Shown piece by piece: positions 11,745-35,723 of a stretch of DNA of 37,286 bases. The stretch comes from Promethearchaeota archaeon (GTDB lineage Archaea; Asgardarchaeota; Lokiarchaeia; Sigyniarchaeales; SOKP01). Below the pieces are notes generated by a model that saw only the letters and a list, made by a program, of their open reading frames with translations, was not told the origin of the DNA and searched no databases. The DNA lies in assembly GCA_011364975.1 (NCBI GenBank), contig RDOE01000031.1, positions 1 through 37,286 on the forward strand, read 5' to 3'. Every line of letters begins with the position of its first letter. Positions within the stretch are counted from its first letter, which is position 1. The translations under genes were made by a program, and so were the position numbers.

Positions 11745-11751
11745 AAATAGA

Positions 11752-21042: not shown

Positions 21043-22647
21043 TCAACTCTCTTTTATTGTTATAACTTTTAGATTTCCTATATCATTTTTCATTTCTAGG
21101 TTTGAAAGAACAAAAATTAAATTTAAATCACGTAAGCTCCTATTATTTTCAAATAAAGGGAGAATCTTATTGATTGTTCTAAAAATAGAACCACGTTTAT
21201 TATATTTTGGGGGAAGAAAGAGGTTCGAAAAAATTATGAATTTAGATTTTAAAAGCATTTTTAGGGATATAAACATACCTATAACTGAAAAAATTTTTTC
21301 TGGAGTAGTAAAATCCTTCCAACTTACTAATTCTTTATTTTTACGGTAAAAATTTATTTTAAGATATAATTTTTCATCATTCTTACTGGTTGCGAGTGTA
21401 AACTGAGTTTCAATATTAAGGATTATTAAAAAAGAGTTAAAAATTACCTCTAAATTATTTAATAAATCATTTAATTTTCTGAGTGCTTCCATAATTCCAA
21501 CAAGTTTGACTTCATCTGAGGGTATCAGATATTTTTTCGTATTATTTGTGATTATATCACCGATTTCTGCAAAAGTATTTAATAAAGTATCCAAGTCCGT
21601 TGGCTTCTCTGTATTATAAAAATCTTCAGGAATAGCTGCATTTTTTATTTCTTCAGATACTTTATTATATTCAATCTCAATTGTCCTAATTGGTCTTACA
21701 GATTGTATTTCTTTTTGATCTATATTTTGGAAATCATAGTCCTTACTATTCATAATCTTTTTCTCAAATTCTTTTTTCAATTCATCAAGTTTATGTTCGT
21801 CTTTCGTTATTTCTTGAACTATTATTTGATAATCCATCATATAGCTCTCATATTCTGGCTTAATTTTATCATATTTATTTTTTGCTTCATCTAAAGCACT
21901 AATTAATTGATTAACCTCGAATTGAGCATCTTTTGCCTTTTTTTGTAAAGCTCTTATCTTTTCTGAATTTGTTAAGTTAAGATCAATCCCAAGTTTTTTA
22001 ATTGAATCTAATTTTGCTTTATCTAGTTCTCCTTCCATATTACGTGTAATTTTGTTAATTTGATTGAAACAATCTTTCTTAAGTTGTGTTAACTCGTTAA
22101 TTTTTATAGTCAAAATCTCAATATTATGTGCTAGGTTAGTGATCTGATTTTTAGTATTTTGAAAATCTTCTTCAAAATATCTTAATTTTTTCTTATTTTT
22201 TTTTATTGAATTCATTAGTTTAGATATTAAATCTTTTATTGCCGATAATTGGCTGGATTCACTAGAAAGCATTGCTATTTCCATTTCCTTAGCAAGAATT
22301 TCTTTTTTATTAAGAAGATAAATGTAGTTTGTTATTTGAGAAAATATATCAACGAATTTACAAAAATTTGAAAATTCTTTAAAACCTAAATCAACAATAT
22401 TTTTAAAATTGGCGATATATTTTAAAATACCTATGGCCTTATGTAATCTCTCATATTCAGTTGTATCCCCTTTAAAAATCTCTATTATTAATTCTACGGG
22501 AATAATTTCCATATTTTCAATAATCTTTATAAAATTTTTTAGTTGTTCCCCCTCTAAGAGATTTTTTTTAAATACTCCCTGAATTAGTGTGAATCTGGAA
22601 TCAATTATTATTTCTTGAGTTCCGATTCTTAATGTGGTGTGATTCAT
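21043..22647 (-). CDS. Degenerate SMC/Rad50-like coiled-coil protein
   Basis: Long central heptad region; terminal segments laid out like ABC head halves (FTLIQG; FTTPEKIFSVIGMFISL; FIIFSN; LIFVLSN), with all catalytic motifs lost. Confidence 0.55.
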   Translation of the reverse strand: MNHTTLRIGTQEIIIDSRFTLIQGVFKKNLLEGEQLKNFIKIIENMEIIPVELIIEIFKGDTTEYERLHKAIGILKYIANFKNIVDLGFKEFSNFCKFVDIFSQITNYIYLLNKKEILAKEMEIAMLSSESSQLSAIKDLISKLMNSIKKNKKKLRYFEEDFQNTKNQITNLAHNIEILTIKINELTQLKKDCFNQINKITRNMEGELDKAKLDSIKKLGIDLNLTNSEKIRALQKKAKDAQFEVNQLISALDEAKNKYDKIKPEYESYMMDYQIIVQEITKDEHKLDELKKEFEKKIMNSKDYDFQNIDQKEIQSVRPIRTIEIEYNKVSEEIKNAAIPEDFYNTEKPTDLDTLLNTFAEIGDIITNNTKKYLIPSDEVKLVGIMEALRKLNDLLNNLEVIFNSFLIILNIETQFTLATSKNDEKLYLKINFYRKNKELVSWKDFTTPEKIFSVIGMFISLKMLLKSKFIIFSNLFLPPKYNKRGSIFRTINKILPLFENNRSLRDLNLIFVLSNLEMKNDIGNLKVITIKES

Positions 22648-22665
22648 AATAGCTGTATTCTTGGT

Positions 22666-23706
22666 TTAAATATTATTAAAATGATCTTTATATTCATCAT
22701 ATTCTTCTTTCTTTCTTTTTCTTCGTTCTCTTATTAAATCAATAGGATCTTTATTACTTTCTTCTTTTGTAAGGTATTTTTCTTTAAAATTTTCTTCAAA
22801 TTGAGATTTAAATTTTTCAATTTTTTCAGAAACCTCATTTGATATTACTAATTCTCCTTGAAGATTCTCTTTACTAGCTATATCTGAAAGTTTTTCCCTC
22901 TTTTTTTTTCGTATTCTTCTTTCAAATTCTTTTTCAGAGAGAGTTAAATAATCTTGATATTCATCTTTTCTCTCTTCTTGTTTCTTTTTTAGTTCTTCGA
23001 GATTCTCCCTCTCTTTTCGTCTTTTGATCAATAATTCCTTTTTAATAAGATCCGAACGTTGTTCTCCATCTTCAAATTCTCGTAAAAATTCTTTAAAGGT
23101 AATATCAGGGTTTTCTAAAAATCTCTCCTTGAATTTTAATATCAAATTATTATCAACATTTGGTGGCATTGTTTGTAATTCATTATTAAGACGTTGATTC
23201 AGAATTTCTTCATAATAGGGGATAAATCTTATGATGATCTTTTGAAATATACTATTTTCTTTCATTACATCTACTAATTCAATCCATTCATTTATTCCAA
23301 TTGAATTCACAGAATTAATCTTTTGAGGGATTTTGCTGATTTTCTTTTTATCAATTAAGTATAACCCGATCTTTTTAAGATTCCTATTATTTATTTTTGC
23401 AGTATCTATTGTAGTTTTAATACGAGCTTTATATTTTTCAATTAGATTGTCGTGAAGATTTAAGAATATGTTTATATTGCTATGGAATATAAATTCAAAA
23501 GATTTGATAATTTCTTTGATGACCGATATCAATTCATTAATCTTTTTTGATACTTCCTGATTTTTTAGAGAAATTTCCATTAAATTTTTAGATTCGTTTA
23601 GATTTGATTCAAGAACATTTAATTTATTTATATTTTCTTGAATAATTTCTATTGGGGCCATTAAATCTTTAATTTTGTCTAGATCAAATAGTGTTACTTC
23701 TGACAT
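22666..23706 (-). CDS. Hypothetical coiled-coil protein with highly charged C-terminal half
   Basis: 346-aa ORF in a tight same-strand cluster; E/K/R-rich helices. Confidence 0.75.
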   Translation of the reverse strand: MSEVTLFDLDKIKDLMAPIEIIQENINKLNVLESNLNESKNLMEISLKNQEVSKKINELISVIKEIIKSFEFIFHSNINIFLNLHDNLIEKYKARIKTTIDTAKINNRNLKKIGLYLIDKKKISKIPQKINSVNSIGINEWIELVDVMKENSIFQKIIIRFIPYYEEILNQRLNNELQTMPPNVDNNLILKFKERFLENPDITFKEFLREFEDGEQRSDLIKKELLIKRRKERENLEELKKKQEERKDEYQDYLTLSEKEFERRIRKKKREKLSDIASKENLQGELVISNEVSEKIEKFKSQFEENFKEKYLTKEESNKDPIDLIRERRKRKKEEYDEYKDHFNNI

Positions 23707-23748
23707 TTAAAATTCATATTTCCTAATTAAGACTTATTAAGTAAAAAA

Positions 23749-24990
23749 CTAAATTTCAGGAGGTGTTAATTTTTTTCTTTTATCATTCATAGTAGATTTT
23801 CTAAATTGGTTAAGATTTCTTGCTTCACTTAACTCATCTTGTCTTTCAACATGAATGGCAGTGCCGCCCACTAACATGAGAGAGTTGTAGAATAATTCGT
23901 AGGTTAAACGTTCAGTATTTATCGCTTTTAATACGGCCACTTTTGTTCCTCTCTCAATATCTGAGCCTGAATATCCATAAGTTAAATTAAGCATTCCTTT
24001 CTCCTTATTTTTCTTATTCACTTCGTTCCATAATAAATTATTATCAAATTCAGAAATTGTTTGACCAAGCTTATTTTCTAAGGACATATGAATACCTCTG
24101 ACGGTTTCATATTCATTATTCAAATTAACATAAATTGAATTATCTACTCCAATTTTAGCATTTTCAAGCTTTTTTAGAAAACTTTCTAGTATTCGCTTTC
24201 TTAATCGATAATCTGGGAACTCAAAGCTAAAATGGAAGGTAAATCTTCTCCATATTGCAGAATCCAACTGATGCTGATGGTTTGTAGCTCCGAATATTGC
24301 AAGCGGAACTCCTTTATAATTCACTCTATCAATAACTTGTAAAAATGATATTACCGCTCTTTTTATTTCCCCCACTTCATGAATATTTGAGCGCTCTGAA
24401 CCGATTGCATCTATTTCATCAAAAAATAATATGAAAGAACCTCTATCATTAGCTATTTCTTCAGCTAATTCTACTACATTCCTTATTTTTTTAATAGTAT
24501 CTCCTAATAAGGGAGATACAAGTCTATCTGTCTCTACAACACAAATGGGGATACTATATTCTTTAGCAAAACCTCGCGTTAAGGAAGTTTTTCCAGTTCC
24601 GGGAGGCCCATATAAAAGCACTGTTAAACTAGGATTTAATTTAGCACCTTTTAACTGCTTGGTGAATTCATCATACTTTTTCAATGCTTTAAAGAAATCA
24701 TGCAGAACTTCTTTTTTAATTTCGTTTCCAAGAATATCATCAATTGTTTCTTGAATATCTGAAGGAAAGTACACCGCGCCATATTGACCCATCCTATCTT
24801 TGATAACATCATCAGTATATACTTTTTTACCCCCTCCTTTTTGTTGAGTAGAGGTAATTTTAGAAATAGATTTTTCCCGGTTTCTTTTCCAATCTAAAAA
24901 GGCTTTTGTTTTATTTCCTCTCCAAATTGCTTTTTTTCCAGTTTCTGCTTCATATCTTTCTATCAAGTTATCATCTTCTGTGTCTATCAT
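23749..24990 (-). CDS. Single-domain classic-clade AAA+ ATPase
   Basis: Walker A GPPGTGKT, Walker B FFDEID, SRH GATNHQHQLDSAIWRRF, GYSGSDI; SD GAGGT upstream. Confidence 0.93.
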   Translation of the reverse strand: MIDTEDDNLIERYEAETGKKAIWRGNKTKAFLDWKRNREKSISKITSTQQKGGGKKVYTDDVIKDRMGQYGAVYFPSDIQETIDDILGNEIKKEVLHDFFKALKKYDEFTKQLKGAKLNPSLTVLLYGPPGTGKTSLTRGFAKEYSIPICVVETDRLVSPLLGDTIKKIRNVVELAEEIANDRGSFILFFDEIDAIGSERSNIHEVGEIKRAVISFLQVIDRVNYKGVPLAIFGATNHQHQLDSAIWRRFTFHFSFEFPDYRLRKRILESFLKKLENAKIGVDNSIYVNLNNEYETVRGIHMSLENKLGQTISEFDNNLLWNEVNKKNKEKGMLNLTYGYSGSDIERGTKVAVLKAINTERLTYELFYNSLMLVGGTAIHVERQDELSEARNLNQFRKSTMNDKRKKLTPPEI

Positions 24991-25103
24991 TTTACCTCAG
25001 ATCCTTGTTATTTTTGAGCATTCTAACTTAATTTTATTTATTTTATTTAATTTATCTAAATTTATCTCAATTACTAATTTTTCTCAACTTCTTGTTGGGT
25101 AAT

Positions 25104-26420
25104 TTATTTATTTTTTCTTTCTATATCAAATTTTTCACAAAAATAAGCTATTTCATCAATGAAATCTTTAAGATTATCAATCTTGGACCCAATAAAGTTA
25201 AAAATTTCTTTTCTATATTGAGGAGAATCTCTTATTTTCATTTTATCTAAGCTTAAGTAATTAGCAAAACAAATTAGCTTCATTAAATAAGGTAATATTT
25301 TTTCATTTGTTTGAAGATCTTTAAAAATAGGATAAAAAATGTTCTCATCAGATAATTTCCATTTCAAGATACCCATATATATTAGGAAGGCGAAATTCAT
25401 CGATATCCAATTAATTAATTCTTTCGACAAAAAACCTCTCCTCTGAGAAGCTAATGCTAAGTAATATAAGATTAATGTCTCATTACTAAATTGAGGGGTA
25501 AGTCGTATAATCCCATCAGATTGTTTGGTATCACGTAAAAAATTATTTTCTAGTAAGAGATCCACTAAATCTTCTGATGGTGCTAAAAAAATATCATCAA
25601 TTATTCTTAAGCCTATTCTTTCATTGATACTTTCGATAGCTTCTTCCTCAGCATTAGCAATAGAATCAATATATGGTAAAAAAACATCTGACTTCAATAT
25701 CATGGGGATTTCATGATTAGGTCTTTCCGGAAAAACTCCAAAATTGGGGTCTAAATTAAATATTGATGTGATATTATTAATAATTTGATATACTTTTGGT
25801 GTGATTCCAGGAATTTCAAAGTAATCGGAACTTTCAAGTTTATCTCGATAATAAGTATGTGGCTGTAATAAGTGCCTTTGGCATTCATATAATTGAGGAG
25901 AATGCTCTAATAATTTATTATAAATAAATTTTAAATTTGTCCCACGGGGAAATAACTTTTCCTCAATAAATTTAGTTAGTGTATATAGGAAGGTATTTTC
26001 TAAATTAGCTTCGTCCGGATTCGTTATTTTCCTCAAAATATTTAATGCATCAATTGATTCATACAAAAATTCAATTATATAATCCTTTATATCAATTATG
26101 GGTATTATATCCCGATATTTAAGAATAAAATCCTTTATGATTTCATAAACATTTGATCGATACATCGCAGAAAATTCAGATAGTGCCCTTACTTTACGAA
26201 TATTTCTTTTTTCCTCTTCTTGACGAATTTTATCTAGGATTTCAGTATCAATTAGTAGATCAGCATCTAATTCAATGATGATTCTTCGAGTTTCTCTAAG
26301 AATTGGGCGCATATGACTTATAAAAGTTAAATATCTAGGTAAGATATCCGTCCACTTTTCTCTTTTTCTTCCCGGTTTTACTGTTCTTGATGACTTTTTC
26401 TTATAACTCATTAATCTCAC
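25104..26420 (-). CDS. Hypothetical protein, mostly helical
   Basis: 438-aa ORF with no recognised motif; likely ATG at 26411. Confidence 0.75.
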   Translation of the reverse strand: MRLMSYKKKSSRTVKPGRKREKWTDILPRYLTFISHMRPILRETRRIIIELDADLLIDTEILDKIRQEEEKRNIRKVRALSEFSAMYRSNVYEIIKDFILKYRDIIPIIDIKDYIIEFLYESIDALNILRKITNPDEANLENTFLYTLTKFIEEKLFPRGTNLKFIYNKLLEHSPQLYECQRHLLQPHTYYRDKLESSDYFEIPGITPKVYQIINNITSIFNLDPNFGVFPERPNHEIPMILKSDVFLPYIDSIANAEEEAIESINERIGLRIIDDIFLAPSEDLVDLLLENNFLRDTKQSDGIIRLTPQFSNETLILYYLALASQRRGFLSKELINWISMNFAFLIYMGILKWKLSDENIFYPIFKDLQTNEKILPYLMKLICFANYLSLDKMKIRDSPQYRKEIFNFIGSKIDNLKDFIDEIAYFCEKFDIERKNK

Positions 26421-26435
26421 TAATGTTTAATTTAT

Positions 26436-27572
26436 TTATTCTTCTTCATATCCAACTACAATTTCTGTAAATATATTTGAAATTTCGACAAATATAGGAA
26501 TTTCAACTCTTACAAGTTGACCTAATATCCATTTATTCACATCCTTCAATAAAAATCGTATTTGATTTATTATTTTTTTATTTACTTCAGAATCTATAAT
26601 TTTAGATAACCACAACCCACCCCCTAATCTATAGGCGATGATTTTAATTAATGGCTCGAAAAGTTGTTCTAAAACTTGTTTCATCATCCAGGATTTAGGA
26701 ATAACACTCATATTACTTGAATCATAGGTCGAATCATTTAATATTGGGTTCTTCTCATCAATGCTTAACTTCGGCATAAAACTCAATAGTAATATCAAAG
26801 CAAATATAGCTGAAATTCCATTAATTGTATAGGTTCCTCCAACTTTTTCAAGATCATCTCTGTTAACTGCAATATTAGCGAGGAACATACAAATAAAAAC
26901 ATTCCTGTCAAAATTTTCTGAAACTATTGCATATCCTAAATCTTCGTCTATAATTAGGTATTTTTCTTCAAGTATTTTAATAATTTCATCAGGAAAAGTA
27001 AAAAATGTGTAGATTTTTTGTTCACTTCGTCTTATATCCTTTTCTATTACAAGTTCCTTCGAAATTAAACCAAACATATTTACGAGTTCTTCAAGTTGTT
27101 TCTTAATGTAATGACGAGGTTTATTTGGATCCCCAAACATTGCAAAAAATTGGTGATCCACAATATGAAAATCATTCCTTTTACTAAAGGCTTCAACCAT
27201 TCTATCAATAATCGGCCCTTGAGAGCCCAAAGCAATTGCTTTTGATTTAGAGGTTATAAAGCCATTAATTAACTCGTTGATGATAAAGTCCTGTTCATGA
27301 GTTCTAGATAAAAGAATTTTTTCAAAGGCTTCCGAAAATTGTTTAGTATTTGGAAAGAAAGCATTTTGTATTTTTTCATTAATTGATTTAATAAATAACT
27401 CTCCATCATTTTTAGGAAAATGTACTTTCATGGTTTCTAATCTCTGAATTAATGCTTCCTTTGCTCCAGGAATATTATCAATATCTCTTTTTTCCAAATT
27501 TTCTATTGCAAACTGTAACCCTTTCTCAAAATCTTTAAGAAGATTATTCCAAGTAACGTCTTGGTTTTCCAT
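26436..27572 (-). CDS. Hypothetical protein
   Basis: 378-aa ORF starting 6 nt after the upstream stop; one hydrophobic segment ISAIFALILLLSF. Confidence 0.75.
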   Translation of the reverse strand: MENQDVTWNNLLKDFEKGLQFAIENLEKRDIDNIPGAKEALIQRLETMKVHFPKNDGELFIKSINEKIQNAFFPNTKQFSEAFEKILLSRTHEQDFIINELINGFITSKSKAIALGSQGPIIDRMVEAFSKRNDFHIVDHQFFAMFGDPNKPRHYIKKQLEELVNMFGLISKELVIEKDIRRSEQKIYTFFTFPDEIIKILEEKYLIIDEDLGYAIVSENFDRNVFICMFLANIAVNRDDLEKVGGTYTINGISAIFALILLLSFMPKLSIDEKNPILNDSTYDSSNMSVIPKSWMMKQVLEQLFEPLIKIIAYRLGGGLWLSKIIDSEVNKKIINQIRFLLKDVNKWILGQLVRVEIPIFVEISNIFTEIVVGYEEE

Positions 27573-27578
27573 TGTTAT

Positions 27579-28538
27579 TTAAACCTCCCATTCTAATTTA
27601 TGTGCAATCTTTTTTAATGCTTCAATCAATGGTTTAATCAATTTTTTTTCATAAATATTTGGTGAGGCGATACCTTTCTGAGCTTTCCATCCCATCTGAG
27701 TTCCCTCACCCATTTCACGTTGTCCATATTTTAAGATATTACTTAAATCTCTTACCCACCAATAAAATCTCAACCATTTTTTATCAGGATTGTCTGGAGA
27801 GTAAATAACAACTATAGCCTTCCATTCTCCCATTAACCATTTTACTGTAATTCCACTCACGGGCATATAGAAATTTATTGGAAAATTAGCATGAAAACTA
27901 ATATCGAGATCTTCAGAGGAAATATTAAAGATAGGCTGATTATACCCTTCAAGAACAACAATTTCACCGCAATGCTGACATTCATAGTGAGATTTCATTT
28001 TATCCATCTTTTTAGAACACTTTGGGCAAGTTTTGTTTTCAATAATTCTATATTTGATGATCTCTAAATTTTTCTCTTTTTCTAATAGTTCTTTGCTTTT
28101 TGGCTCTTGTTTGCCATATTTTCCCTTCCAGGTCCAGAATTCATCAAAATTTTTATCGAATCTTTCTAAAGCATTAATAATGTTTTTCAAAACCTCCTTG
28201 TCATAAATTTTAAACATACCAGCATGCTGGTAACTTTTCCACCATGATAATCTCACGTATTTTTCATCTTTTAAGTAAGCACTATGACAAATCAAGACTG
28301 CAAATAATCTAGTTTCAGCTTTATTTATAATTATCCCAGACTCTGCTATTTCATATTGTTTGTTTAAACTCACGTTTTTGTGAAAGTATTCTCCATCAAG
28401 AAAGTCACCATTCTCGATAGTTTCTTTTTCATCCACACTTTTCTCTTCTTTTTGCTTTATGATTTTTCTACACTGCGGACACTGAAAAATTCCAGCAACT
28501 AATGGTTCCATATCAATATCACAAGAAGGACATTTCAA
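27579..28538 (-). CDS. Protein with two tandem [Zn ribbon + PC4-like] repeats
   Basis: CPSC..CPQC and CPKC..CQHC, each followed by an alignable FHxN..SGI..K(Y/W)(V/L)R..WW..IY(D/E)K....I.AL module. Confidence 0.7.
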   Translation of the reverse strand: MKCPSCDIDMEPLVAGIFQCPQCRKIIKQKEEKSVDEKETIENGDFLDGEYFHKNVSLNKQYEIAESGIIINKAETRLFAVLICHSAYLKDEKYVRLSWWKSYQHAGMFKIYDKEVLKNIINALERFDKNFDEFWTWKGKYGKQEPKSKELLEKEKNLEIIKYRIIENKTCPKCSKKMDKMKSHYECQHCGEIVVLEGYNQPIFNISSEDLDISFHANFPINFYMPVSGITVKWLMGEWKAIVVIYSPDNPDKKWLRFYWWVRDLSNILKYGQREMGEGTQMGWKAQKGIASPNIYEKKLIKPLIEALKKIAHKLEWEV

Positions 28539-28540
28539 TT

Positions 28541-29641
28541 TTAATTATCACTACTCATAATAACAAATTTTTCATAATCTAAATTTAGTAATTGTAAATC
28601 CTTTTTTGAAAATTTTAAAAGTTCTTCATTAATTTCTACTAATTTATTTCTTAAATCAATAAGAGTTGATTGAATTTTATCAATAATGCCACCTTCATTA
28701 AATGATATTTTTTCGATAAAATCAAGATAACTATGTGCTTTATTTTTTCCGGAATATGCTTTCTTTAATTCTAATAATTGATTATCTATAAGTTTCATCT
28801 TATAGTTAAGATTTAACAAAATTAGAAGTTTATTTTTCCATGTTTGGAATATTTCTTCATTTGGGTCTATTTTATCAAAAGAAAATTTCCCAGATAATTC
28901 AATCCCTTCATCTTTAAGGTATTTAATAATCTCTTTATTCTCATCTATTGCTTTTTCAACTTTCTTTTTAACGGGTTTATTAATTAATTTAGGATCAAAG
29001 ATTTCCAAAAAAGATTCTATTTTTTTCTGAATCTCAGAAAATCTTTCGTAGAAACCCTCGATGGTTAGCTCAATTTTAATCGTTTGATATATATTTCCAA
29101 ATTGATCTAAAATATAATATAGATCATCTGATATGGTATAATCATGTTCCCCTATTTCATAGATAAAGGGATGTATATTATTGGTTTTTTCACATCTTAC
29201 TCCCTTTAGTTTAGTTAAAGCAAGATTAAAATTTCTTCTAGAGAGAGTTTTAAATTTTTTATTAATTATTAAAAACAAGCTATCATCAGGCACAGAAATT
29301 GTATTTTCTTCAATAGTTATTGTTTCCTCTCCTAACTTAACTAGAAAGTCTGGTTCCTTTTGTTGAAATTCTCTAATGCTTCTAATATTTTTTAATAATC
29401 CTAAATCAATAGCGACTTCAGTAAAATTTTCGTCCCAAAAACTAGTAATATTATTTTTGAAAATCTCATCTAATATCAATATTTTTTCATAATTATCAAT
29501 TAAAGTAGGATCGCTTAAATCTTTAAAAAGGTCATTTCTAATGACATATAAAAATAATGCAACGTACCTCATATCTAAGTCATCAAGAATTTTCTCGATG
29601 AGGTTCTTATCAACCTCTATTGATAAATTTTTATGTTCCAT
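28541..29641 (-). CDS. Hypothetical protein with possible winged helix and C-terminal coiled coil
   Basis: 366-aa ORF, first gene of the minus-strand cluster; helical C-terminal half. Confidence 0.75.
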   Translation of the reverse strand: MEHKNLSIEVDKNLIEKILDDLDMRYVALFLYVIRNDLFKDLSDPTLIDNYEKILILDEIFKNNITSFWDENFTEVAIDLGLLKNIRSIREFQQKEPDFLVKLGEETITIEENTISVPDDSLFLIINKKFKTLSRRNFNLALTKLKGVRCEKTNNIHPFIYEIGEHDYTISDDLYYILDQFGNIYQTIKIELTIEGFYERFSEIQKKIESFLEIFDPKLINKPVKKKVEKAIDENKEIIKYLKDEGIELSGKFSFDKIDPNEEIFQTWKNKLLILLNLNYKMKLIDNQLLELKKAYSGKNKAHSYLDFIEKISFNEGGIIDKIQSTLIDLRNKLVEINEELLKFSKKDLQLLNLDYEKFVIMSSDN

Positions 29642-29840
29642 GCCTAAAATCCACTTACAATTATTTATTTCGGGTAATTTTTTCAGTTAAAAAGAGTGAT
29701 TAAGTAAATATAACATTCCTAAAAAATTTTTCGATTTCCTCTTATTTTCAACTTAAAATACGAAAATTTTTTAGTTTTGAATGATAGATGACTATTAACT
29801 AAGAAATTTAATTCAATTGAAATAAGTATACTGAGAAATT

Positions 29841-30453
29841 ATGGGACGAAGAAAGAGAAAGCAACAAACATATAAGAGAGTCAAGAAAGTTCCAAAGATT
29901 TTCACCTGCCCAAATAACTGAATGGATCTCCCATTCAAATATGGAATGTGGTGAAAAATCTGTTAAAGTAGAGAATATAAGAAAGAGCGCAATAGCCACA
30001 GTTAAATGTGGATATTGTGGTTTGACCAAAGATGTATTAGTTAATTCCATATCTGAACCTGTGGATGCTTTCGGTGATTTTATTGATGTCTATTATGCAG
30101 ATCAAGAACTCCAAAGGTTAGAAAAACGAGTTCTAAAATTGAAAGAGGATAATGAATGGGGGGAATTATCCTTAGCCTATTCTATTCTTTCAGATATTTG
30201 CAGAGCAAAAGCAGCTGAAGCTTTAGAGGATGAAAATGAGGTAAACATGGAAGAAGTAAACAAATGGAAATTACAAGCGGAAGAATATAAACGTCTTGAA
30301 AAAAATGCTTTATTACAGTTAGATAGTCTTGAATTAGAAAAAGGAATTAAGACAGATGATGAATCATTATTCACTGAACATGATGAGAGTGATATCAAGA
30401 AAGAAAAAAAGATAGAAGACATTTTTGAAGATCCCGGTTTTCTAGAATTTTGA
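29841..30453 (+). CDS. elf1: Transcription elongation factor Elf1 with C-terminal extension, interrupted by a 31-nt insert (proposed join 29841..29915, 29947..30453; 193 aa)
   Basis: The frame from ATG 29841 reads MGRRKRKQQTYKRVKKVPKIFTCPN. A different frame continues CGEKSVKV...VKCGYCGL...EPVDAFGDFIDVY. Together they form a full Elf1 zinc ribbon. Confidence 0.85.
29916..29946 (+). other. Candidate 31-nt BHB-type intron in elf1 mRNA
   Basis: In-frame TGA at 29919; hairpin TGAATGG/CCATTCA; exon stem TTTTCACC/GGTGAAAA; central CCAA/ATGG helix flanked by two 3-nt bulges. Removal restores the frame and CxxC. Confidence 0.7.
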
Positions 30454-30454
30454 T

Positions 30455-32125
30455 TCAAGCGTTATATTCCATATTTGATCGCAGAATTCTCTCCTTAACA
30501 TTTAAGGGGATAAATTTCCAAATAGGAAGTCTAATAATCAAGTTAAATAACTCATTTAAGGTAATTTTCTTTTTCTTAATGAGATAGCTCCAATTACGAT
30601 AAGCCAATTTATTAAACAAGCGCATTAAATTAACTCCAAAGATATTATATTTTGAAGTTAGGAATTTTGCAAAATAAGCTCCCAATCTTTTAGTTTGAGG
30701 AACAGATTCCGGGTAAACTGATTCTGAGAGAGGACGATTGAATATTTCATATATTGAAAAGATAGGTATGAGATTTTCGAGATATTCATTGATTATTGTG
30801 ACATAATTTGTATTTTTCGAGGATAAGAGTGATAAATCATTCAGTTTTTTTAGGGCAAAGCTAAAATATTTTTCTTTAAATGATAACCACATGGATGCCA
30901 TATTATTTCTTAAATCCTTAAAAATATGGATTATTTCTTCTTCTTGAAAGAGTAATTCATAATCATTCTCTTGATGCTTTATGTATTCTAAGAATACAGA
31001 ATCAGTATTTTTACTTTCAAAACTATTAAATGCATACTCTCTTGATTCGGTATGAATTGTATGTGTATATAATGGAGTGGTCCATAACATTTGCAATAGT
31101 CTTTCCATAATCTTTAGGTTAAATGAGAGTTGGATAAAGGTTTTATTAATTCTTAAGTTTGATTTATCCATAAATTTTAATTTAGATAACAAATCCTTCT
31201 TTTTCTTTTTACTTTCAAGAATTTTTTTAACCAAGAGATGCCTAATTTTCTTTAGTTTTATAATATAGGAATAAAAATCAACATTATAATGTTCAACAAT
31301 ATATTCATGGGGAATTAAAGCAACATTACGGATCTCTTTATCATTCTTAGAATTAATACTCATTGCGTGATCACCAATAGAATAGGAAAATAGAGTATTA
31401 TCTAAAGCGGAATTAAAATCGGAAAATTTACCCAATCTTTTTGGTGCGTTTGTAAAATAACCATGAAGGAGAGTTTCAATAGCCTTAAAGTTATTATTTT
31501 CATATTCTGATATAATTATAGATTCAAATTCACCTGGATGGTGTCGCTTTATCTTATATTTATTCGCTACAAGATATATAGCCTGATTAGCGCGGTGGCA
31601 TACAGTATGACTCCACCTAAAAATAGTTTCTAAGCATCTACCATACGTAAGGTGATATCCATAAAATTCAGGGCCAAAATAAATAGGGAATCCAAATCCA
31701 CGAGAAGTTGCAAAGGTGAATTGCAATAAGTTTCTTACTTTTTCTCCTTTCAATAATCCGGGGAATTTGTAATGTAGGGCAATCCTTGGAAATAACGCAC
31801 CTATCCCCAAGTTCATCCAAGCCTCAAATAAAATTATACTATCTGGAAATTTAAAAGAGTCCTTTCTAGAGGAGTATTCATCACTCACTTTAGTTAAAGT
31901 AGTTGGAATTGAATATAACCAATCTTTCTCATGTTCTAAGGTTTGGATTCCCATTTTTAATTTTGATAAAACGAGTGGTTTTATCTGATTCTGGACATTA
32001 TTTTTAATGAAGTAATAATTATTTAGTACCCTAATAAATGATGTAATTTCTAAAATACGGGTCTGTAAATTATGTGAGACTTTGATGTTTATAGCCTTTA
32101 ATGTATTCATATTGTAGGGATACAA
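30455..32125 (-). CDS. Hypothetical protein
   Basis: 556-aa ORF converging on elf1 with a 1-nt gap; no recognised family; start uncertain. Confidence 0.7.
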   Translation of the reverse strand: MYPYNMNTLKAINIKVSHNLQTRILEITSFIRVLNNYYFIKNNVQNQIKPLVLSKLKMGIQTLEHEKDWLYSIPTTLTKVSDEYSSRKDSFKFPDSIILFEAWMNLGIGALFPRIALHYKFPGLLKGEKVRNLLQFTFATSRGFGFPIYFGPEFYGYHLTYGRCLETIFRWSHTVCHRANQAIYLVANKYKIKRHHPGEFESIIISEYENNNFKAIETLLHGYFTNAPKRLGKFSDFNSALDNTLFSYSIGDHAMSINSKNDKEIRNVALIPHEYIVEHYNVDFYSYIIKLKKIRHLLVKKILESKKKKKDLLSKLKFMDKSNLRINKTFIQLSFNLKIMERLLQMLWTTPLYTHTIHTESREYAFNSFESKNTDSVFLEYIKHQENDYELLFQEEEIIHIFKDLRNNMASMWLSFKEKYFSFALKKLNDLSLLSSKNTNYVTIINEYLENLIPIFSIYEIFNRPLSESVYPESVPQTKRLGAYFAKFLTSKYNIFGVNLMRLFNKLAYRNWSYLIKKKKITLNELFNLIIRLPIWKFIPLNVKERILRSNMEYNA

Positions 32126-32295
32126 CTATTTTACTAAACTTAATCTTTAATAAGTTATAGTAAATAATTTTGATATTAATTTTTGTTATATTAAAATCAA
32201 TAAAGAAATTAAATAAAGGTAAAATGTATTAAATGAAACATTTAATAAAAGATATTAATTAATTTTTCTAGGATAATAATTTAGACGAATCTAAT

Positions 32296-32739
32296 CTATT
32301 GTTGAGATTGACGCTTAGCAAATAATTGTTTGAGCTCACCCATTATAGCACCTCTTAAACTTTGAGGGTTAGCTGGGCGTTGTGGTCCAGGACTACCAGG
32401 TGGTCCTCCTGGTGGTGGTGGTGGACCTCCAGGGGGTCCTCCAGGGGGTCCTGAAGATGGTGGTGGGACACTAATAGGCGCACTTGGAGAAGCAATAACT
32501 GGAGCCGCTCCTCCACCCCCCCTTGTTTTCAAAGCAGCAAGATCATTATTCATATTATTCATTTTTGATTCAATAGAGGATATTTTTTGGTTAAAATTTG
32601 ACAATGTTTGATCTAATAAATCGGGTATTCTTAAAAGCATTGACATCATTCTTTCCACGATATCTCCAAATGCATTAAGTTTTTCTTCAAGAGGGGCTTT
32701 TCGAGTTTCTTGCATGAAATTTGCGAATTCTTCTGCCAT
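32296..32739 (-). CDS. Coiled-coil plus polyproline plus amphipathic-helix protein, candidate actin/profilin regulator
   Basis: N-terminal heptads; PPPSSGPPGGPPGGPPPPPGGPPG; C-terminal LRGAIMGELKQLFAKR. Confidence 0.7.
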   Translation of the reverse strand: MAEEFANFMQETRKAPLEEKLNAFGDIVERMMSMLLRIPDLLDQTLSNFNQKISSIESKMNNMNNDLAALKTRGGGGAAPVIASPSAPISVPPPSSGPPGGPPGGPPPPPGGPPGSPGPQRPANPQSLRGAIMGELKQLFAKRQSQQ

Positions 32740-32869
32740 TTTTTATTCTCTATTTTTATTAATAAAGTGATATGCTATCCTTTTTCTATTAATTATATAT
32801 TTGATATGTTTAATAAATTTAAGTTCATAGCTTTGTATTAATGGAAATTATGGAAAAAAAAGTTATATC

Positions 32870-33502
32870 TTAACTTGCTTTATTTACGGTATTCTTAAGT
32901 TTGAGCCATAGCTCATCAACTTCGTTCCTAACTTGTATAAACTGATGCATTTTTTTTAGAAAGACATCTCGAGCACGATCGAATTCTTTTTGAATATCAT
33001 TAACCTCTGCTTCAAGAATATGCATCTTTTCTCCTTCAATCAAATCATTTTTCTTTTTTTCAAGAGCTAAAGCTTTTTTAATTACTATACTACGTTTATT
33101 TGCAACTTCACCTAAAGCATCGGCAAATTCGATTTTTTTTTCAATAAAATATTCCTTTTTAAGTGCTAAATCCTTTATTGCATCGATATATGCATTATTA
33201 ACTTTGATATAATCATCATTCCTATGGATTATGTCTTGAAAAATATTAACTTCTTCATCTTTAATATTTGATCTTTTTTCTCGTACCAACGTCTGCATTT
33301 GCTTCAAAACATCTCTAAATATTCTATTAAGCATATCACGATTTAAATTAACTTTCCTCAAATTATCAGCATACTTTTTTTGAGAATCGATAAGATTTTC
33401 TTGAGATTTTGCCAATTTCTTAAATTGAGAAACTAAATCTCTCTCAATTTTAGCAAGCTCGAGTTCGTCTTCATGAGTAATGATTGGGCTCATATTCATC
33501 AA
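32870..33502 (-). CDS. All-helical coiled-coil protein, BAR-domain sized
   Basis: 210 aa, nearly free of Pro and Gly, long amphipathic helices. Confidence 0.7.
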   Translation of the reverse strand: MMNMSPIITHEDELELAKIERDLVSQFKKLAKSQENLIDSQKKYADNLRKVNLNRDMLNRIFRDVLKQMQTLVREKRSNIKDEEVNIFQDIIHRNDDYIKVNNAYIDAIKDLALKKEYFIEKKIEFADALGEVANKRSIVIKKALALEKKKNDLIEGEKMHILEAEVNDIQKEFDRARDVFLKKMHQFIQVRNEVDELWLKLKNTVNKAS

Positions 33503-33589
33503 TTTAAAACTTATTTAATTTAGATTTAATCGTTTTATTATTTTTAAATAAATTCATGATTATAATATTTAGTCTTTTTTGAAATATAC

Positions 33590-34624
33590 TCAAAAAGGAT
33601 ACAATGCAGTTGTGATATTATCTTTATAATTTGCTTTAATTATTTTTGCCGTTACAGAAGTTCCAACTAATCCATCATCAAAAATTAAGGGTTTTTTCAA
33701 TAGGATTTTAATACCAACGTTATCGTCAATTTTTCCAATACATTCATTTTGCCATCTTCCTCTTGATATAATTTTTATCTTCAAAAGATCACCTTTTTGA
33801 TATTTTAAAGATGAAACAGATGTCCTTTTATGAATTCCAAAATCATTAGGACCTAATTTTAACTTTATATTATATTTTTTTTCTAGTTTTGTTAATTGTG
33901 AGTAGAAATAATCCCAGGATTTGGGTCTAATCTTCTTCAATTTTCTCCCTGTTTTATATATTAAATACTTTTGTATACCAATTTGCGTCTGCTGTTCGGT
34001 AAATCCTTCCTTTCTTAAGTTAAGTATAAGTTTTATAATGTCCTCAATATCAGTATCATTTTGGCCAGGAAACCACACTGGGGCTAATAATATATCAATT
34101 TTCGAATCTAAGAGATTATATATATTCTTTATAATCATATCAAGATCATATTCATTACAATTACATAAATAGCAAGCTAACTCTTCATTTAATGTGTTTA
34201 AGCTTAAATTGATCCTTGTGAGGCCTTTTATTTTTAGCATTTTTACAAGATCAGGTGATAATAACAAACCATTACTCTGCATAGAAATAGTTGTGATTCC
34301 ATTCATGTTAGAAAATCGTTCTAATAAGTTGTTTAATTCAGGATAAAGTAAAATTTCCCCATATGGTGCTATATGAATTTCAATATCAAACTCTCCTTTA
34401 ATTTCTACAACTTTCTTCACATTTTCTACTAAATAATCTGAATTAATCATAAAGTTTGTCTCGTAATCATTAGCACTAACAAAACAATATTTGCATTTTA
34501 GATTGCATAAAGTTAGGGGTTTAAGTTCAATAATATTAGTCCCCCGATCAATTACTCCTAAAAAGTCGACACCCATCAACGGGATTTCTGAATCTTTATT
34601 GATATAAATAAGCTCTCTGTTCAT
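33590..34624 (-). CDS. Radical SAM protein (COG2100-like, archaeal)
   Basis: IPLMGVDFLGVIDRGTNIIE, CNLKCKYC (CxxxCxxC), SMQSNG, RINLSL, APVWFPG.ND, DFGIHKR. Confidence 0.88.
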   Translation of the reverse strand: MNRELIYINKDSEIPLMGVDFLGVIDRGTNIIELKPLTLCNLKCKYCFVSANDYETNFMINSDYLVENVKKVVEIKGEFDIEIHIAPYGEILLYPELNNLLERFSNMNGITTISMQSNGLLLSPDLVKMLKIKGLTRINLSLNTLNEELACYLCNCNEYDLDMIIKNIYNLLDSKIDILLAPVWFPGQNDTDIEDIIKLILNLRKEGFTEQQTQIGIQKYLIYKTGRKLKKIRPKSWDYFYSQLTKLEKKYNIKLKLGPNDFGIHKRTSVSSLKYQKGDLLKIKIISRGRWQNECIGKIDDNVGIKILLKKPLIFDDGLVGTSVTAKIIKANYKDNITTALYPF

Positions 34625-34649
34625 ATTTTTCCAGGGTGATATTGGTTTT

Positions 34650-35723
34650 TCATAACTTATATCTTAAAATAGCAATTATTTCTCCTAAATCAATAATTTG
34701 TTGGCCTGTAGGATGTTCACTACTTAAAATGTTGATAGTTCCCCCATTCCTTTCTACATCAGTTATGATCTCTTCAACTTGTAGCTTTTTTTCGTTAGAA
34801 ACTCCTCTAATTACAATATCAGCAACAAAAAGCTCCTTTATGGCTCCTTGTTTGCCTGCATTTGCTATTTCATCAAACCCAATGGCGATTAGATCAGGTT
34901 CGGTACTAAATAAAGTAAGAATTTCTTCAATTTTCTCTGCTTCTTGAAGAACTTTGACCTCTTCCCTAAATTTTAAAAGTTCTTTGGATTTTAAGGTTTC
35001 TAAAATCGCAGTCTCTAACCCTGAGCTTGCATGAATACTATATATTTTTGGTAAATAAGGAGGATTAAATTTTTCCTTAATATATTGGATAAATTTATCA
35101 CGTGTATTTCCAGGACCACATATTATTAATACATCAAATTGAGTAGATTTATAGTTCTCTTCTATAACCTTGTTGATGCTAAGAAAGAATTCTTCCAGAG
35201 CTTTATTTCGATGTGTTTGTTCATACCTTTTTCCGGGGATATTAGTTTTTATTGTGGTGATCTTAGTATGACTATAATTCGTTACTAAATCAATAGTTGC
35301 CAATCCCGTTTCAATCGCCACTATAAGCATAATGAAGTTCACTTTAAACTTCGAGGCTTCTTTTAATCTTTTTAGCTCACTTTTCAACCATTTTTCTTTA
35401 GAGATGATTAATATATCCCCGATTTCGACATTAAAAGTATGATAGGTCCCATAAGATACGAAATCTTCAGGACCTTCTAAGATTGTCCCTTTAATTCTTA
35501 GACGATTTGAAAATTCGTGAAATGCTAATGATTCCACATTTAATTTCAAGTACATTGACTTTCTTTCCCCTTTTGAACCTTCTTTCAAAATGACTCGGCG
35601 TTGTGTTCTTGAACTAACTTTATCGCTCTTTGTTATAACATTATAAAGAGTCCAAAGATCATTTAAATCTTCTACTTTAACCGTAATTTCTTCAAATTTT
35701 TTATCAATTTCTAAAATCTTCAC
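34650..35723 (-). CDS. pelA: Pelota/Dom34 ribosome rescue factor
   Basis: EDLNDLWTLYN, FHEFSNRLRIKG, YHTFNV, IPGKR, CGPG, SSEHPTGQQI..LGEIIAILRY motifs. Confidence 0.95.
   Translation of the reverse strand: MKILEIDKKFEEITVKVEDLNDLWTLYNVITKSDKVSSRTQRRVILKEGSKGERKSMYLKLNVESLAFHEFSNRLRIKGTILEGPEDFVSYGTYHTFNVEIGDILIISKEKWLKSELKRLKEASKFKVNFIMLIVAIETGLATIDLVTNYSHTKITTIKTNIPGKRYEQTHRNKALEEFFLSINKVIEENYKSTQFDVLIICGPGNTRDKFIQYIKEKFNPPYLPKIYSIHASSGLETAILETLKSKELLKFREEVKVLQEAEKIEEILTLFSTEPDLIAIGFDEIANAGKQGAIKELFVADIVIRGVSNEKKLQVEEIITDVERNGGTINILSSEHPTGQQIIDLGEIIAILRYKL

What the first reader, a model, noticed from the sequence alone, without database searches (positions are those of the whole stretch)
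29841..29961. Candidate tRNA-type (bulge-helix-bulge) intron inside the protein-coding elf1 gene
Seen: ATG 29841 encodes a typical Elf1 N-terminus (MGRRKRK...KVPKIFTCPN) that hits TGA at 29919. The rest of Elf1 resumes in another frame, and removing 31 nt restores CPxC. The flanks pair as TTTTCACC(29899-29906)/GGTGAAAA(29950-29957), extendable by AGA/TCT. The insert holds a perfect 7-bp hairpin TGAATGG(29919-25)/CCATTCA(29931-37). Between them is a central CCAA(29910-13)/ATGG(29941-44) helix (3 pairs plus an A-A mismatch), with 3-nt bulges ATA(29914-16) and AAT(29945-47). Known: archaeal splicing endonuclease EndA cuts after the second nt of each bulge, and the main established archaeal mRNA intron is in crenarchaeal cbf5. 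Applying that rule removes 29916-29946, exactly 31 nt, giving FTCPN|CGEKS. Inference: an EndA/RtcB-spliced mRNA intron in a probable Asgard archaeon, possibly a regulatory switch analogous to non-spliceosomal HAC1/XBP1 splicing. The BHB is relaxed, not canonical.
Basis: partly seen in the sequence, partly recalled or inferred. Interest (0 to 1): 0.93.

Follow-up and report, generated by a model that had tools for sequence, protein, structure and literature searches.

The report
tRNA-type intron in Asgard elf1
The only gene for transcription factor Elf1 in this Asgard archaeon is interrupted by a 31-base insert shaped like a tRNA intron, and 39 related species carry such an insert at the same spot, so this is very probably a rare archaeal messenger-RNA intron, although no RNA data were available to show the splicing.

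Summary
elf1 is split into 29841-29915 and 29947-30453 by 31 nt that fold as a relaxed bulge-helix-bulge (BHB) motif. The cut rule restores the CPNC zinc knuckle.

Comparative data support a real intron:
- A 28-32 nt insert sits at the same codon boundary in 40 of 120 genomes of one Asgard family that have an elf1 match. No interrupted elf1 was seen outside that family.
- Insert sequences differ widely, but the geometry is kept. Nine of 21 modelled pairs show compensatory changes, including exon-intron pairs at the Pro-codon wobble base.
- All 38 complete loci give a 192-194 aa spliced ORF. Median dN/dS is 0.09.
- Intronless relatives are joined exactly at the predicted junction.
- The exon-exon helix is stronger when the insert is present (independent contrasts, p about 0.008).
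- The genome encodes an alpha/beta splicing endonuclease pair and RtcB, and its tRNA introns are of similar size.

Weak points: no RNA evidence exists, and the 4-bp central helix is imperfect in 33 of 40.

Verdict: a new member of the kind known from crenarchaeal cbf5, in a new gene and a new phylum. The proposed regulatory role is untested.

The parts
29841..29915 (+). elf1 exon 1: 25 codons, from Met to the Asn of the first zinc knuckle (C-P-N)
   Evidence: ORF and translation. Pfam PF05129 positions 1-27. 92-100% identical to the N-termini of uninterrupted congeneric Elf1.
29916..29946 (+). 31-nt BHB-type intron. In the exon-1 frame it puts a TGA at 29919-21.
   Evidence: Cutting after the 2nd nt of each bulge removes exactly these bases. 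The resulting junction equals that of intronless orthologues. Homologous 28-32 nt inserts lie at the same site in 39 other genomes.
29947..30453 (+). elf1 exon 2: 168 codons plus the stop, holding the second Cys of the knuckle, the rest of the zinc ribbon and a C-terminal extension
   Evidence: Pfam PF05129 positions 28-78, E 5.7e-10. The spliced ORF is 193 aa, as in relatives.
29899..29909 (+). 5' strand of the outer exon-exon helix (29899-29906 plus 29908-29909; U29907 bulged)
   Evidence: Present in the MFE fold. 96.6% of cells paired over 38 sequences. Watson-Crick pairs average 8.82 of 10 in intron-bearing genes against 5.96 of 10 in intronless genes.
29948..29957 (+). 3' strand of the outer helix, in exon 2
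   Evidence: Same calls as the 5' strand (3, 49, 63, 67).
29910..29913 (+). Central-helix strand in exon 1 (CCAA: Pro codon plus the first base of the Asn codon)
   Evidence: Pairs with 29941-29944 (3 pairs and an A-A mismatch). The wobble base of the Pro codon covaries with the intron (A:U 27, U:A 4, G:C 3, unpaired 4 of 38).
29914..29916 (+). 5' bulge (A-U-A), holding the predicted 5' cut between 29915 and 29916
   Evidence: Sequence. The first bulge base is A in 40 of 40 homologous inserts.
29917..29940 (+). Inner helix and loop of the intron: A29917:U29940, a small internal loop, a 7-bp stem 29919-25/29931-37, and the loop 29926-30
   Evidence: MFE fold. All seven modelled inner pairs show compensatory changes across 38 sequences. 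RNAalifold predicts them without guidance.
29941..29944 (+). Central-helix strand in the intron (AUGG)
29945..29947 (+). 3' bulge (A-A-U), holding the predicted 3' cut between 29946 and 29947
   Evidence: Sequence. The pattern A-N-U holds in 40 of 40. Contigs of intronless relatives in public runs start to align exactly at 29947 (loose ends).

Best explanation
The 31 nt at 29916-29946 are a bulge-helix-bulge (tRNA-type) intron inside the only elf1 gene of this Asgard (Promethearchaeota) genome.

Proposed mechanism, with the status of each step:
1. In the pre-mRNA, codons of exon 1 (Ile-Phe-Thr-Cys) pair with codons of exon 2 (Cys-Gly-Glu-Lys) to form an outer helix. Shown by sequence and comparison.
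2. The Pro codon and the first base of the next codon pair with the 3' end of the intron to form the short central helix. Shown, but imperfect.
3. The rest of the intron forms a hairpin. Shown.
4. This places two 3-nt bulges on opposite strands, 4 positions apart. The heterotetrameric (alpha-beta)2 splicing endonuclease encoded in the genome cuts after the second base of each bulge. Inferred.
5. RtcB joins the exons, and probably circularises the intron. Inferred.
6. The spliced mRNA encodes a 193-aa Elf1 with an intact C-P-N-C zinc knuckle. The unspliced mRNA would give only a 26-aa peptide.

The intron is old within one family and has been lost precisely many times, or more rarely gained.
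For: (1) Split of one domain: Pfam positions 1-27 and 28-78 lie on two frames.

(2) It is the only elf1 above the cut-off in a 99.25%-complete genome.

(3) Same-site inserts of 28, 30, 31 or 32 nt occur in 16 of 37 assessable genomes of the genus. In the family they occur in 40 of 120 genomes with an elf1 match: g1 16, g16 4, g21 1, g22 19. Lengths fall in all three classes modulo 3.

(4) All 38 complete loci give a spliced ORF of 192-194 aa. Pairwise dN/dS has a median of 0.09 and a maximum of 0.37 over 595 pairs, at a median dS of 1.6.

(5) Structure over 38 distinct sequences:
- 92.0% of cells pair, against 81.2% in shuffles (0 of 500 reach it) and 44-49% when slid.
- 9 of 21 pairs carry double changes (78 cells against 24.3 in shuffles, 0 of 500).
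- This includes the exon-intron pairs 23:55 (A:U, U:A, G:C) and 24:54 (G:C, A:U, C:G).

(6) RNAalifold, without guidance, finds the outer and inner helices. It leaves a symmetric 7x7 loop, which is the space a 3+4 / 4+3 BHB needs.

(7) The central helix is a perfect 4 bp in 7 of 40 sequences.

(8) Intronless sister genes at 87-96% CDS identity are joined exactly at the predicted junction.

(9) Outer-helix Watson-Crick pairs average 8.82 of 10 in 38 intron-bearing genes and 5.96 of 10 in 67 intronless genes. In 11 phylogenetically independent pairs the helix goes with the intron in 7.7, against it in 0.0, and does not differ in 3.3 (median p 0.008).

(10) Enzymes:
- A catalytic EndA alpha keeps the residues I recall as the Tyr/His/Lys catalytic triad; its best PDB matches are 3p1z_B and 3ajv_B.
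- A beta-like paralogue has Phe and Ser where the M. jannaschii enzyme 1a79 has Tyr and His.
- One RtcB is present.
- Passages of PMC5829648 say Asgard archaea have the (alpha-beta)2 type with the L1 insert, and that only (alpha-beta)2 and epsilon2 types cut relaxed motifs.

(11) tRNA introns of the same genome are 18-37 nt. When fitted to the BHB rule, their central helices are 4/4 in 6 of 10 and 3/4 in 3 of 10. One has the same bulge letters and a length of 32 nt.

(12) The DNA is real: contigs of 3 of 4 laid runs bridge the insert with 0 gaps.
Against: No RNA evidence: no listed run that holds the locus is on record as RNA. Splicing, cleavage sites and ligation are therefore all inferred.

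The central helix is the weak element:
- It has one mismatch in 32 of 40 sequences and two in 1 of 40.
- 78.1% of its cells pair.
- RNAalifold does not predict it.
- The single-sequence MFE fold holds at least 3 of its 4 pairs in only 17 of 37 distinct sequences. In most g22 sequences the MFE prefers another register.
- In G000 itself the motif is relaxed: an A-A mismatch, a 1x2 internal loop under the hairpin, and a bulged U in the outer helix.

The exon strands of the outer helix are partly complementary even in intronless genes (8.39 of 10 counting G-U). Part of the helix is therefore a by-product of the conserved amino-acid sequence.

The sequences are related, so shuffle-based figures overstate independence.
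Confidence: 0.88

Rival explanations
1. Translational bypassing, as in phage T4 gene 60. The ribosome would take off at the last exon-1 codon, skip the insert over its hairpin, and land just before the Cys codon, so no RNA splicing is needed.
For: In genus g22 the last exon-1 codon and the last three bases of the insert are identical in 15 of 19 sequences. A stop codon follows the take-off codon directly in 19 of 19, and a hairpin follows. In G000 a stop comes two codons after exon 1 and begins the hairpin.
Against: Take-off and landing codons differ in G000 (AAU against GAA) and in 21 of 21 sequences of g1, g16 and g21. The g22 repeat follows from the two-fold symmetry of a BHB with two identical bulges. 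Bypassing does not explain the covariation between the Pro-codon wobble base and the 3' end of the insert, nor the selection for an exon-exon helix. In two g16 sequences the first stop comes only after 7 codons, and in G014 after 12.
Confidence: 0.04
2. A truly split or truncated gene. The cell would make a 26-aa peptide and, from a start codon inside the insert, an N-terminally truncated Elf1. Public gene callers annotate the locus this way.
For: G000 has an ATG at 29941 that opens a 170-aa ORF. Among the best 120 database relatives, 38 are 176-aa and 2 are 170-aa proteins, and the five fetched examples start inside the insert.
Against: The truncated protein lacks the first Cys of the first knuckle of the zinc ribbon. 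Exon 1 stays intact, with its start codon, and is 92-100% identical in protein across the genus. The joined frame is under strong purifying selection. Internal starts are not conserved: most g22 inserts hold no ATG. The model does not explain the conserved BHB geometry or the covariation.
Confidence: 0.04
3. A decaying pseudogene, disrupted by a small insertion.
For: There is a premature stop and a frame change. G000 sits on a rather long end branch of the gene tree (0.32).
Against: No other elf1 lies in a 99.25%-complete genome. The same interruption is kept in 40 species, with 38 of 38 complete spliced ORFs open at 192-194 aa. dN/dS of G000 against other intron-bearing copies is 0.035-0.17, at dS above 1.
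Confidence: 0.02
4. An assembly or sequencing artefact.
For: The window comes from a 200-contig metagenome-assembled genome with 6.09% contamination. Three congeneric genomes have contig ends inside elf1.
Against: Contigs from three runs of three studies bridge the insert without gaps. Thirty-nine other assemblies hold homologous, diverged inserts at the same site.
Confidence: 0.005

Closest known systems
BHB intron in the cbf5 (pseudouridine synthase) pre-mRNA of Crenarchaeota. Source: Watanabe et al. 2002, Yoshinari et al. 2006 and Yokobori et al. 2009. I read passages of PMC2738675; I saw the two older papers only as references.
   Same: Both are short introns in a protein-coding gene with a BHB-like motif that is mostly unconventional or relaxed. 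In both, the cleavage predicted between the 2nd and 3rd bulge residues matches the exon borders. Both hosts have a hetero-oligomeric splicing endonuclease. Both introns interrupt a functionally essential motif: the catalytic Asp codon in cbf5, the zinc knuckle here. Both have a patchy distribution that implies loss and gain.
   Different: The gene differs (elf1) and so does the phylum (Asgard, not Crenarchaeota). cbf5 of this genome is uninterrupted. Splicing of cbf5 was shown by cDNA and enzyme assays; here nothing is shown at the RNA level. Here the outer helix is made of two exon segments, and its codon choice tracks the presence of the intron.
Archaeal pre-tRNA BHB introns, including the many introns of Asgard tRNA genes. 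Sources: bioRxiv 10.64898/2026.10.13.758758, of which I saw the abstract and one passage, and passages of PMC5829648.
   Same: The motif, the cut rule, the size range (18-37 nt in this genome) and the presumed enzymes (EndA alpha/beta, RtcB) are the same.
   Different: The host here is an mRNA. The exon parts of the motif are codons and must also satisfy the protein sequence. Failure to splice gives a truncated protein rather than a defective tRNA.
Non-spliceosomal HAC1/XBP1 mRNA splicing in eukaryotes (recalled; only the title of reference 5 of PMC5829648 was seen).
   Same: Both are protein-only splicing of an mRNA: an endonuclease cuts at paired stem-loop sites and an RtcB-type or tRNA ligase seals. 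In both cases splicing changes the reading frame.
   Different: In eukaryotes the endonuclease is IRE1, not EndA/TSEN. The motif is two stem-loops, not a BHB. Splicing there is a regulated stress switch, and no regulation is shown here.
Translational bypassing in phage T4 gene 60 (recalled).
   Same: In both, a short untranslated gap lies inside a coding sequence, with a stop codon and a hairpin at its start. Part of genus g22 has matched codons at both ends of the gap.
   Different: Matched codons are absent in G000 and in 21 of 21 sequences outside g22. The covariation seen fits an RNA-cleavage motif.

Membership tests
Archaeal BHB (EndA-type) intron | Strict hBHBh' motif: two 3-nt bulges on opposite strands, separated by a perfect 4-bp helix and flanked by helices | tested here: not met
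   In G000 the central helix has 3 pairs and an A-A mismatch. The inner helix has a 1x2 loop and the outer helix a bulged U. The strict form is met in 7 of 40 homologous inserts: G014, five 32-nt g1 sequences and G083.
Archaeal BHB (EndA-type) intron | Relaxed BHB geometry: 3-nt bulge, 4 positions of helix, 3-nt bulge, between two flanking helices | tested here: met
   There are seven bases on each strand between the outer and inner helices in all 38 aligned sequences (only G014 has a gap in these columns, placed by the aligner). At least 3 of 4 central pairs form in 39 of 40.
Archaeal BHB (EndA-type) intron | Cutting after the 2nd nt of each bulge yields the functional mature RNA | tested here: met
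   The rule removes 29916-29946. The junction equals that of 21 uninterrupted congeneric genes and restores a 193-aa ORF.
Archaeal BHB (EndA-type) intron | Helices supported by compensatory change | tested here: met
   9 of 21 pairs carry double changes, 78 cells against 24.3 in shuffles (0 of 500). The outer helix varies on one side only.
Archaeal BHB (EndA-type) intron | The host encodes a splicing endonuclease able to cut relaxed motifs, and an RtcB ligase | tested here: met
   Two EndA paralogues are present, a catalytic alpha and a beta-like one, plus one RtcB. That the (alpha-beta)2 type cuts relaxed motifs is taken from passages of PMC5829648, not tested here.
Archaeal BHB (EndA-type) intron | Excision observed: spliced RNA, a circular or linear intron, or in-vitro cleavage | not testable with these tools
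cbf5-type archaeal pre-mRNA intron | Lies in the cbf5 gene at the catalytic Asp codon | tested here: not met
   The host gene is elf1. The TruB_N matches of G000 lie in one open 345-aa frame without stops. This is therefore a new host gene, not a copy of that intron.
Translational bypass element (gene 60 type) | Matched take-off and landing codons flanking the gap | tested here: not met
   In G000 the codons are AAU and GAA. They match in 15 of 40 sequences overall, all of them in g22.
Group I / group II intron or intein | A catalytic RNA core of hundreds of nt, or an in-frame protein-splicing domain | tested here: not met
   The insert is 28-32 nt. It holds stops or shifts the frame.

The most novel reading that the evidence does not exclude
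The elf1 intron may be more than a passive passenger. It may be a maintained post-transcriptional control that ties production of a eukaryote-like transcription elongation factor to the capacity of the tRNA-splicing machinery. Unspliced mRNA would give only a 26-aa peptide.

Three further points would follow from or accompany that reading:
- The exon codons co-evolve with the intron.
- The at least 11-18 changes of state on the gene tree would reflect frequent precise intron loss in Asgard archaea, by reverse transcription of spliced mRNA or by short conversion tracts. The clustered synonymous differences beside the site in sister pairs fit this.
- elf1 would be the first visible case of a wider set of BHB introns in Asgard protein-coding genes that gene callers now annotate as truncated proteins.
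Probability: 0.2. Interest if true: 0.88.

Novelty: new member of a known kind. Interest (0 to 1): 0.75.

Why it matters
Introns in archaeal protein-coding genes removed by the tRNA-splicing enzymes have rested on essentially one case, cbf5 of Crenarchaeota. That is what the papers I could search show.

A second host gene, in the archaeal phylum closest to eukaryotes, adds three things:
- It shows that the mechanism is not a crenarchaeal oddity.
- It gives a natural series of 40 diverged introns and many precise losses, usable to study how such introns arise, persist and disappear.
- It points to a systematic annotation error. Public databases hold many 170- and 176-aa 'Elf1' proteins that start inside the intron.

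It also offers a compact substrate of about 80 nt for testing what Asgard splicing endonucleases accept.

Tried and rejected
RNA evidence. The look-up of sequencing runs on window 25000-34999 listed no RNA holder. This is no evidence either way. Run X9 laid no contig on the stretch.

Other mRNA introns in this genome.
- A strict BHB scan of both strands required 4/4 central pairs, at least 4 outer and 4 inner pairs, and a length of 14-110 nt. It gave 14,689 raw hits, of which 372 passed an ORF-joining filter.
- Of 41 short-listed hits, most were visibly adjacent genes, for example the carA/carB type, or out-of-frame chance ORFs.
- Four were fetched and their halves scanned with Pfam. None showed one domain split over the two halves.
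- The scan would have missed the elf1 intron itself, because of its mismatch. It therefore says little about absence.

cbf5. The gene is uninterrupted in G000.

Inserts outside the family.
- The phylum search covered 332 genomes of at least 80% completeness; 153 outside family f1 had a match.
- Its match table was cut at 150 rows, so for most of those genomes I judged by the per-genome best E-value (4.2e-15 or better, as for full-length matches).
- The weaker ones were inspected and found uninterrupted: five, and G058, G027 and G029.
- Family f5 and genus g12 have extra Elf1 zinc-ribbon repeats within one open frame, not introns.

Spliced forms in the protein database. Full-length 193-aa relatives up to 98.4% identical to spliced products exist. 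They cannot be told apart as RNA-derived or as intronless DNA, so they are not used as evidence.

Single-sequence MFE folding as proof of the BHB. It reproduces the central helix in only 17 of 37 sequences.

First test of the outer helix. The Mann-Whitney test on 25 against 35 flank haplotypes is not corrected for phylogeny. I replaced it with the independent-pairs test.

Rows dropped.
- The tree has 105 CDS.
- Left out: G097 and G129 (intron-bearing, cut by contig ends); G023, G092 and G072 (cut); G132, G116 and G149 (my start-codon pattern did not find them); and all of g12.
- Alignment A2 holds 38 distinct of the 40 stretches.

Supplements of papers were closed. Those of bioRxiv 10.64898/2026.10.13.758758 and of PMC5829648 might list non-tRNA BHB sites in Asgard genomes, and I could not see them. 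In the main text of the preprint, 'mRNA', 'Elf1' and 'cbf5' occur 0 times.
Full report
OBSERVATION.

An ATG at 29841 opens a 26-codon frame that ends at the TGA of 29919-21. A second frame, from 29941 to 30453, encodes 170 residues.

Pfam puts the first piece on positions 1-27 of the Elf1 zinc-ribbon profile PF05129 and the second on positions 28-78. One domain is therefore cut in two, inside its first Cys-x-x-Cys knuckle.

The complementary stretches, the 7-bp hairpin, the CCAA/AUGG helix with its A-A mismatch, and the two 3-nt unpaired stretches lie at the stated coordinates. I add two more outer pairs directly beside the 3' bulge (29909:29948 and 29908:29949).

The 81-nt region folds at -20.8 kcal/mol (z -3.61; 1 of 200 shuffles as good). 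Removing 29916-29946 restores the knuckle and a 193-aa frame.

IS IT REAL DNA, AND IS IT THE ONLY COPY?

The window is contig C130 of a 3.74-Mb, 200-contig genome (99.25% complete, 6.09% contaminated, 30.6% G+C). No other elf1 reaches significance in it.

Contigs of three public DNA runs from three studies bridge the insert with no gap; one of these may be the source. A fourth run laid nothing.

In the same runs, contigs of related organisms start to match exactly at 29947 and carry an uninterrupted knuckle before it (loose ends).

RELATIVES.

Record titles of congeneric loci name Promethearchaeota, that is Asgard archaea.

The genus holds 42 species genomes.
- 37 have an assessable elf1: 21 are uninterrupted and 16 carry an insert at the same codon boundary.
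- Insert lengths there are 32 nt (5 genomes), 31 nt (G000), 30 nt (9) and 28 nt (1).
- Of the five without a match, three have the 3' part of elf1 at a contig end.

In the whole order, 154 genomes were searched and 136 had a match. Interrupted genes occur only in the window's family. Counts come:
- g1: 16.
- g16: 4 of 4.
- g21: 1 of 9.
- g22: 19 of 49.
- Together: 40 of 120 family genomes with a match.

The 16 matched genomes of the other families of the order are uninterrupted. So, as far as I could judge, are the 153 matched genomes outside the family in a phylum-wide sample. The match table was cut, so most of those were judged by their E-value.

STRUCTURE AND COVARIATION.

The inserts of the four genera share almost no sequence, yet all have the same layout. 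Seven bases lie on each strand between an outer helix made of exon 1 and exon 2 codons and an inner hairpin.

By the BHB rule, those seven bases are four bases of central helix and three of bulge. The exon-1 strand of the central helix is the Pro codon plus the first base of the next codon. The other strand is the last-but-two four bases of the insert.

On an alignment of the 38 distinct sequences, my 21-pair model performs as follows:
- It pairs in 92.0% of cells. Shuffles give 81.2%, and 0 of 500 reach the observed value. Slid registers give 44-49%.
- Nine pairs show changes on both sides: 78 cells, against 24.3 in shuffles (0 of 500).

The most telling pairs link exon and intron.
- The wobble base of the Pro codon pairs as A:U (27), U:A (4) or G:C (3), and is unpaired in 4.
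- The first base of the following codon (Asn, Gln, Glu or Asp) pairs as G:C (14), A:U (5) or C:G (4), and is unpaired in 14.

RNAalifold, given only the alignment, finds the outer helix and both parts of the inner helix. It leaves exactly the 7x7 loop, but it does not call the central helix.

That helix is perfect in 7 of 40 sequences, has one mismatch in 32 and two in 1. Single-sequence folding contains it in 17 of 37. The motif is thus relaxed in most members, G000 included.

Both bulges begin with A in 40 of 40.

THE GENE IS ALIVE.

All 38 complete interrupted loci give a spliced frame of 192-194 residues. Across 595 pairs, dN/dS has a median of 0.09 and a maximum of 0.37, at a median dS of 1.6. 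G000 against other intron-bearing copies gives 0.035-0.17. Exon 1 keeps its start codon and is 92-100% identical in protein within the genus.

EXONS ADAPT TO THE INTRON.

The amino-acid sequence around the site is nearly invariant, but codon choice is not. The ten outer-helix positions form 8.82 Watson-Crick pairs on average in 38 intron-bearing genes and 5.96 in 67 intronless genes.

In 11 phylogenetically independent pairs of genes that differ in intron state, a strong helix goes with the intron in 7.7, against it in 0.0, and does not differ in 3.3 (median p 0.008).

In sister genes 95-96% identical overall, the differences pile up in the three or four codons just before the site.

HISTORY.

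I built a gene tree of 105 coding sequences, with the helix-forming columns left out. It needs at least 18 changes of intron state, of which at least 11 are forced by well-supported branches. Shuffled labels need 31.

Intronless sisters are joined exactly at the predicted junction. Inserts within g22 and within g1 are recognisably homologous across scattered lineages. Repeated precise loss from an old intron is therefore the simplest reading. Transfer of alleles between species cannot be excluded on a 580-nt gene tree.

MACHINERY.

The genome has two EndA paralogues of about 200 residues.
- One keeps the residues that I recall as the Tyr/His/Lys catalytic triad. It is closest to chains 3p1z_B and 3ajv_B.
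- The other has Phe and Ser where the M. jannaschii enzyme 1a79 has Tyr and His. It looks like a structural beta subunit.

One RtcB is present.

ARAGORN finds 22 tRNA genes, 13 of them with introns. Ten of those introns, 18-37 nt long, were fitted to the BHB rule. The central helix was 4/4 in 6, 3/4 in 3 and 1/4 in 1. That fit picked the best of several shifts, so it is generous. One tRNA-Ala intron has the same bulge letters as the g1 elf1 introns and is 32 nt long.

RIVALS.

Translational bypassing has one thing in its favour. In 15 of 19 g22 genes the codon before the insert equals its last three bases, and a stop follows at once. This fails in G000 and in all 21 genes of the other genera, and it does not explain the covariation.

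A truncated Elf1 started inside the insert is what gene callers produce. Among the best 120 database relatives, 38 are 176-aa and 2 are 170-aa proteins, and the five fetched examples start inside the insert. Such a protein lacks a zinc ligand, and the internal starts are not conserved.

A pseudogene and an artefact are excluded by the points above.

KNOWN RELATIVES AND NOVELTY.

Full-text searches found archaeal pre-mRNA BHB introns only for cbf5 of Crenarchaeota. They found no paper that combines Elf1 with archaeal introns, and none that reports such an intron in an Asgard protein-coding gene.

Passages of PMC2738675 describe the same picture for cbf5:
- mostly unconventional BHB motifs;
- cuts between the 2nd and 3rd bulge residues;
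- a hetero-oligomeric endonuclease;
- interruption of a catalytic codon;
- gain and loss, with reverse transcription proposed as the route of loss.

The elf1 intron works like that one but sits in another gene and another phylum, and cbf5 of this genome is intact. I file it as a new member of a known kind. It is not in print as far as these searches reach; subscription journals and supplements were not searchable.

LIMITS.

Nothing here shows RNA. An attempt to find further mRNA introns in this genome gave no supported case, and it was not sensitive.

Noticed in passing
window 29919-29946 and homologous loci (proteins P0001, P0003, P0023, P0090): Public protein collections hold many N-terminally truncated 'Elf1' proteins whose start codon lies inside the intron. 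Of the best 120 relatives, 38 are 176 aa and 2 are 170 aa, and some clusters have up to 85 members. This looks like a systematic annotation error.
   Followed up: partly
L142 (G063, genus g12); G257-G259 (family f5): Some Asgard lineages have Elf1 with an extra or tandem zinc-ribbon repeat inside one open frame. In G063 this is a 153-nt in-frame addition at the same knuckle. Family f5 has two to three Elf1-domain matches in frames of 237-320 aa. These are coding duplications, not introns.
   Followed up: partly
G056:C18, G006:C111, G045:C64 (L059-L061): In three congeneric genomes a contig ends inside elf1, so only the 3' part is assembled. Strain mixtures with and without the intron could break the assembly graph there.
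   Followed up: no
G000 contigs (ARAGORN list), e.g. C129:17369-18082: Only 22 tRNA genes are detected in a 99%-complete genome, and 13 of them have introns. One tRNA-His call has a 622-nt 'intron'. Many tRNA genes are probably hidden by multiple or non-canonical introns.
   Followed up: no
G000:C200:57858-57962: A tRNA-Ala gene has a 32-nt intron at a non-canonical position. It has a 4/4 central helix, an inner stem of 8 bp, and the same bulge letters (AU|A and AU|U) as the elf1 introns of the genus.
   Followed up: partly
sister pairs G099/G095 and G110/G106 (L120/L160, L122/L154): These genes are 95-96% identical overall, yet differ at four to five synonymous sites within the 18 nt just upstream of the intron site. 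This could be a short conversion tract at intron loss, or rapid change once the helix is no longer needed or has become harmful.
   Followed up: partly
G000:C20:2668-2701 (L198): A strict BHB-like element of 34 nt lies between a 504-aa amine-oxidase-like frame and a frame of 402 codons in all (299 within the locus) with ferredoxin-reductase-type FAD and NAD domains and no early Met. Pfam gives no domain split across it, so these are probably adjacent genes, but the case is unresolved.
   Followed up: partly
window 10521-12441 (+) and the neighbourhood 21043-35723 (-): Two + strand ORFs overlap by about 100 nt (10521-11744 and 11641-12441). Most neighbours of elf1 have no Pfam family. Those recognised are an AAA ATPase (23752-24990), a radical SAM protein (33593-34624) and an eRF1/Pelota-type protein (34653-35723).
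   Followed up: no
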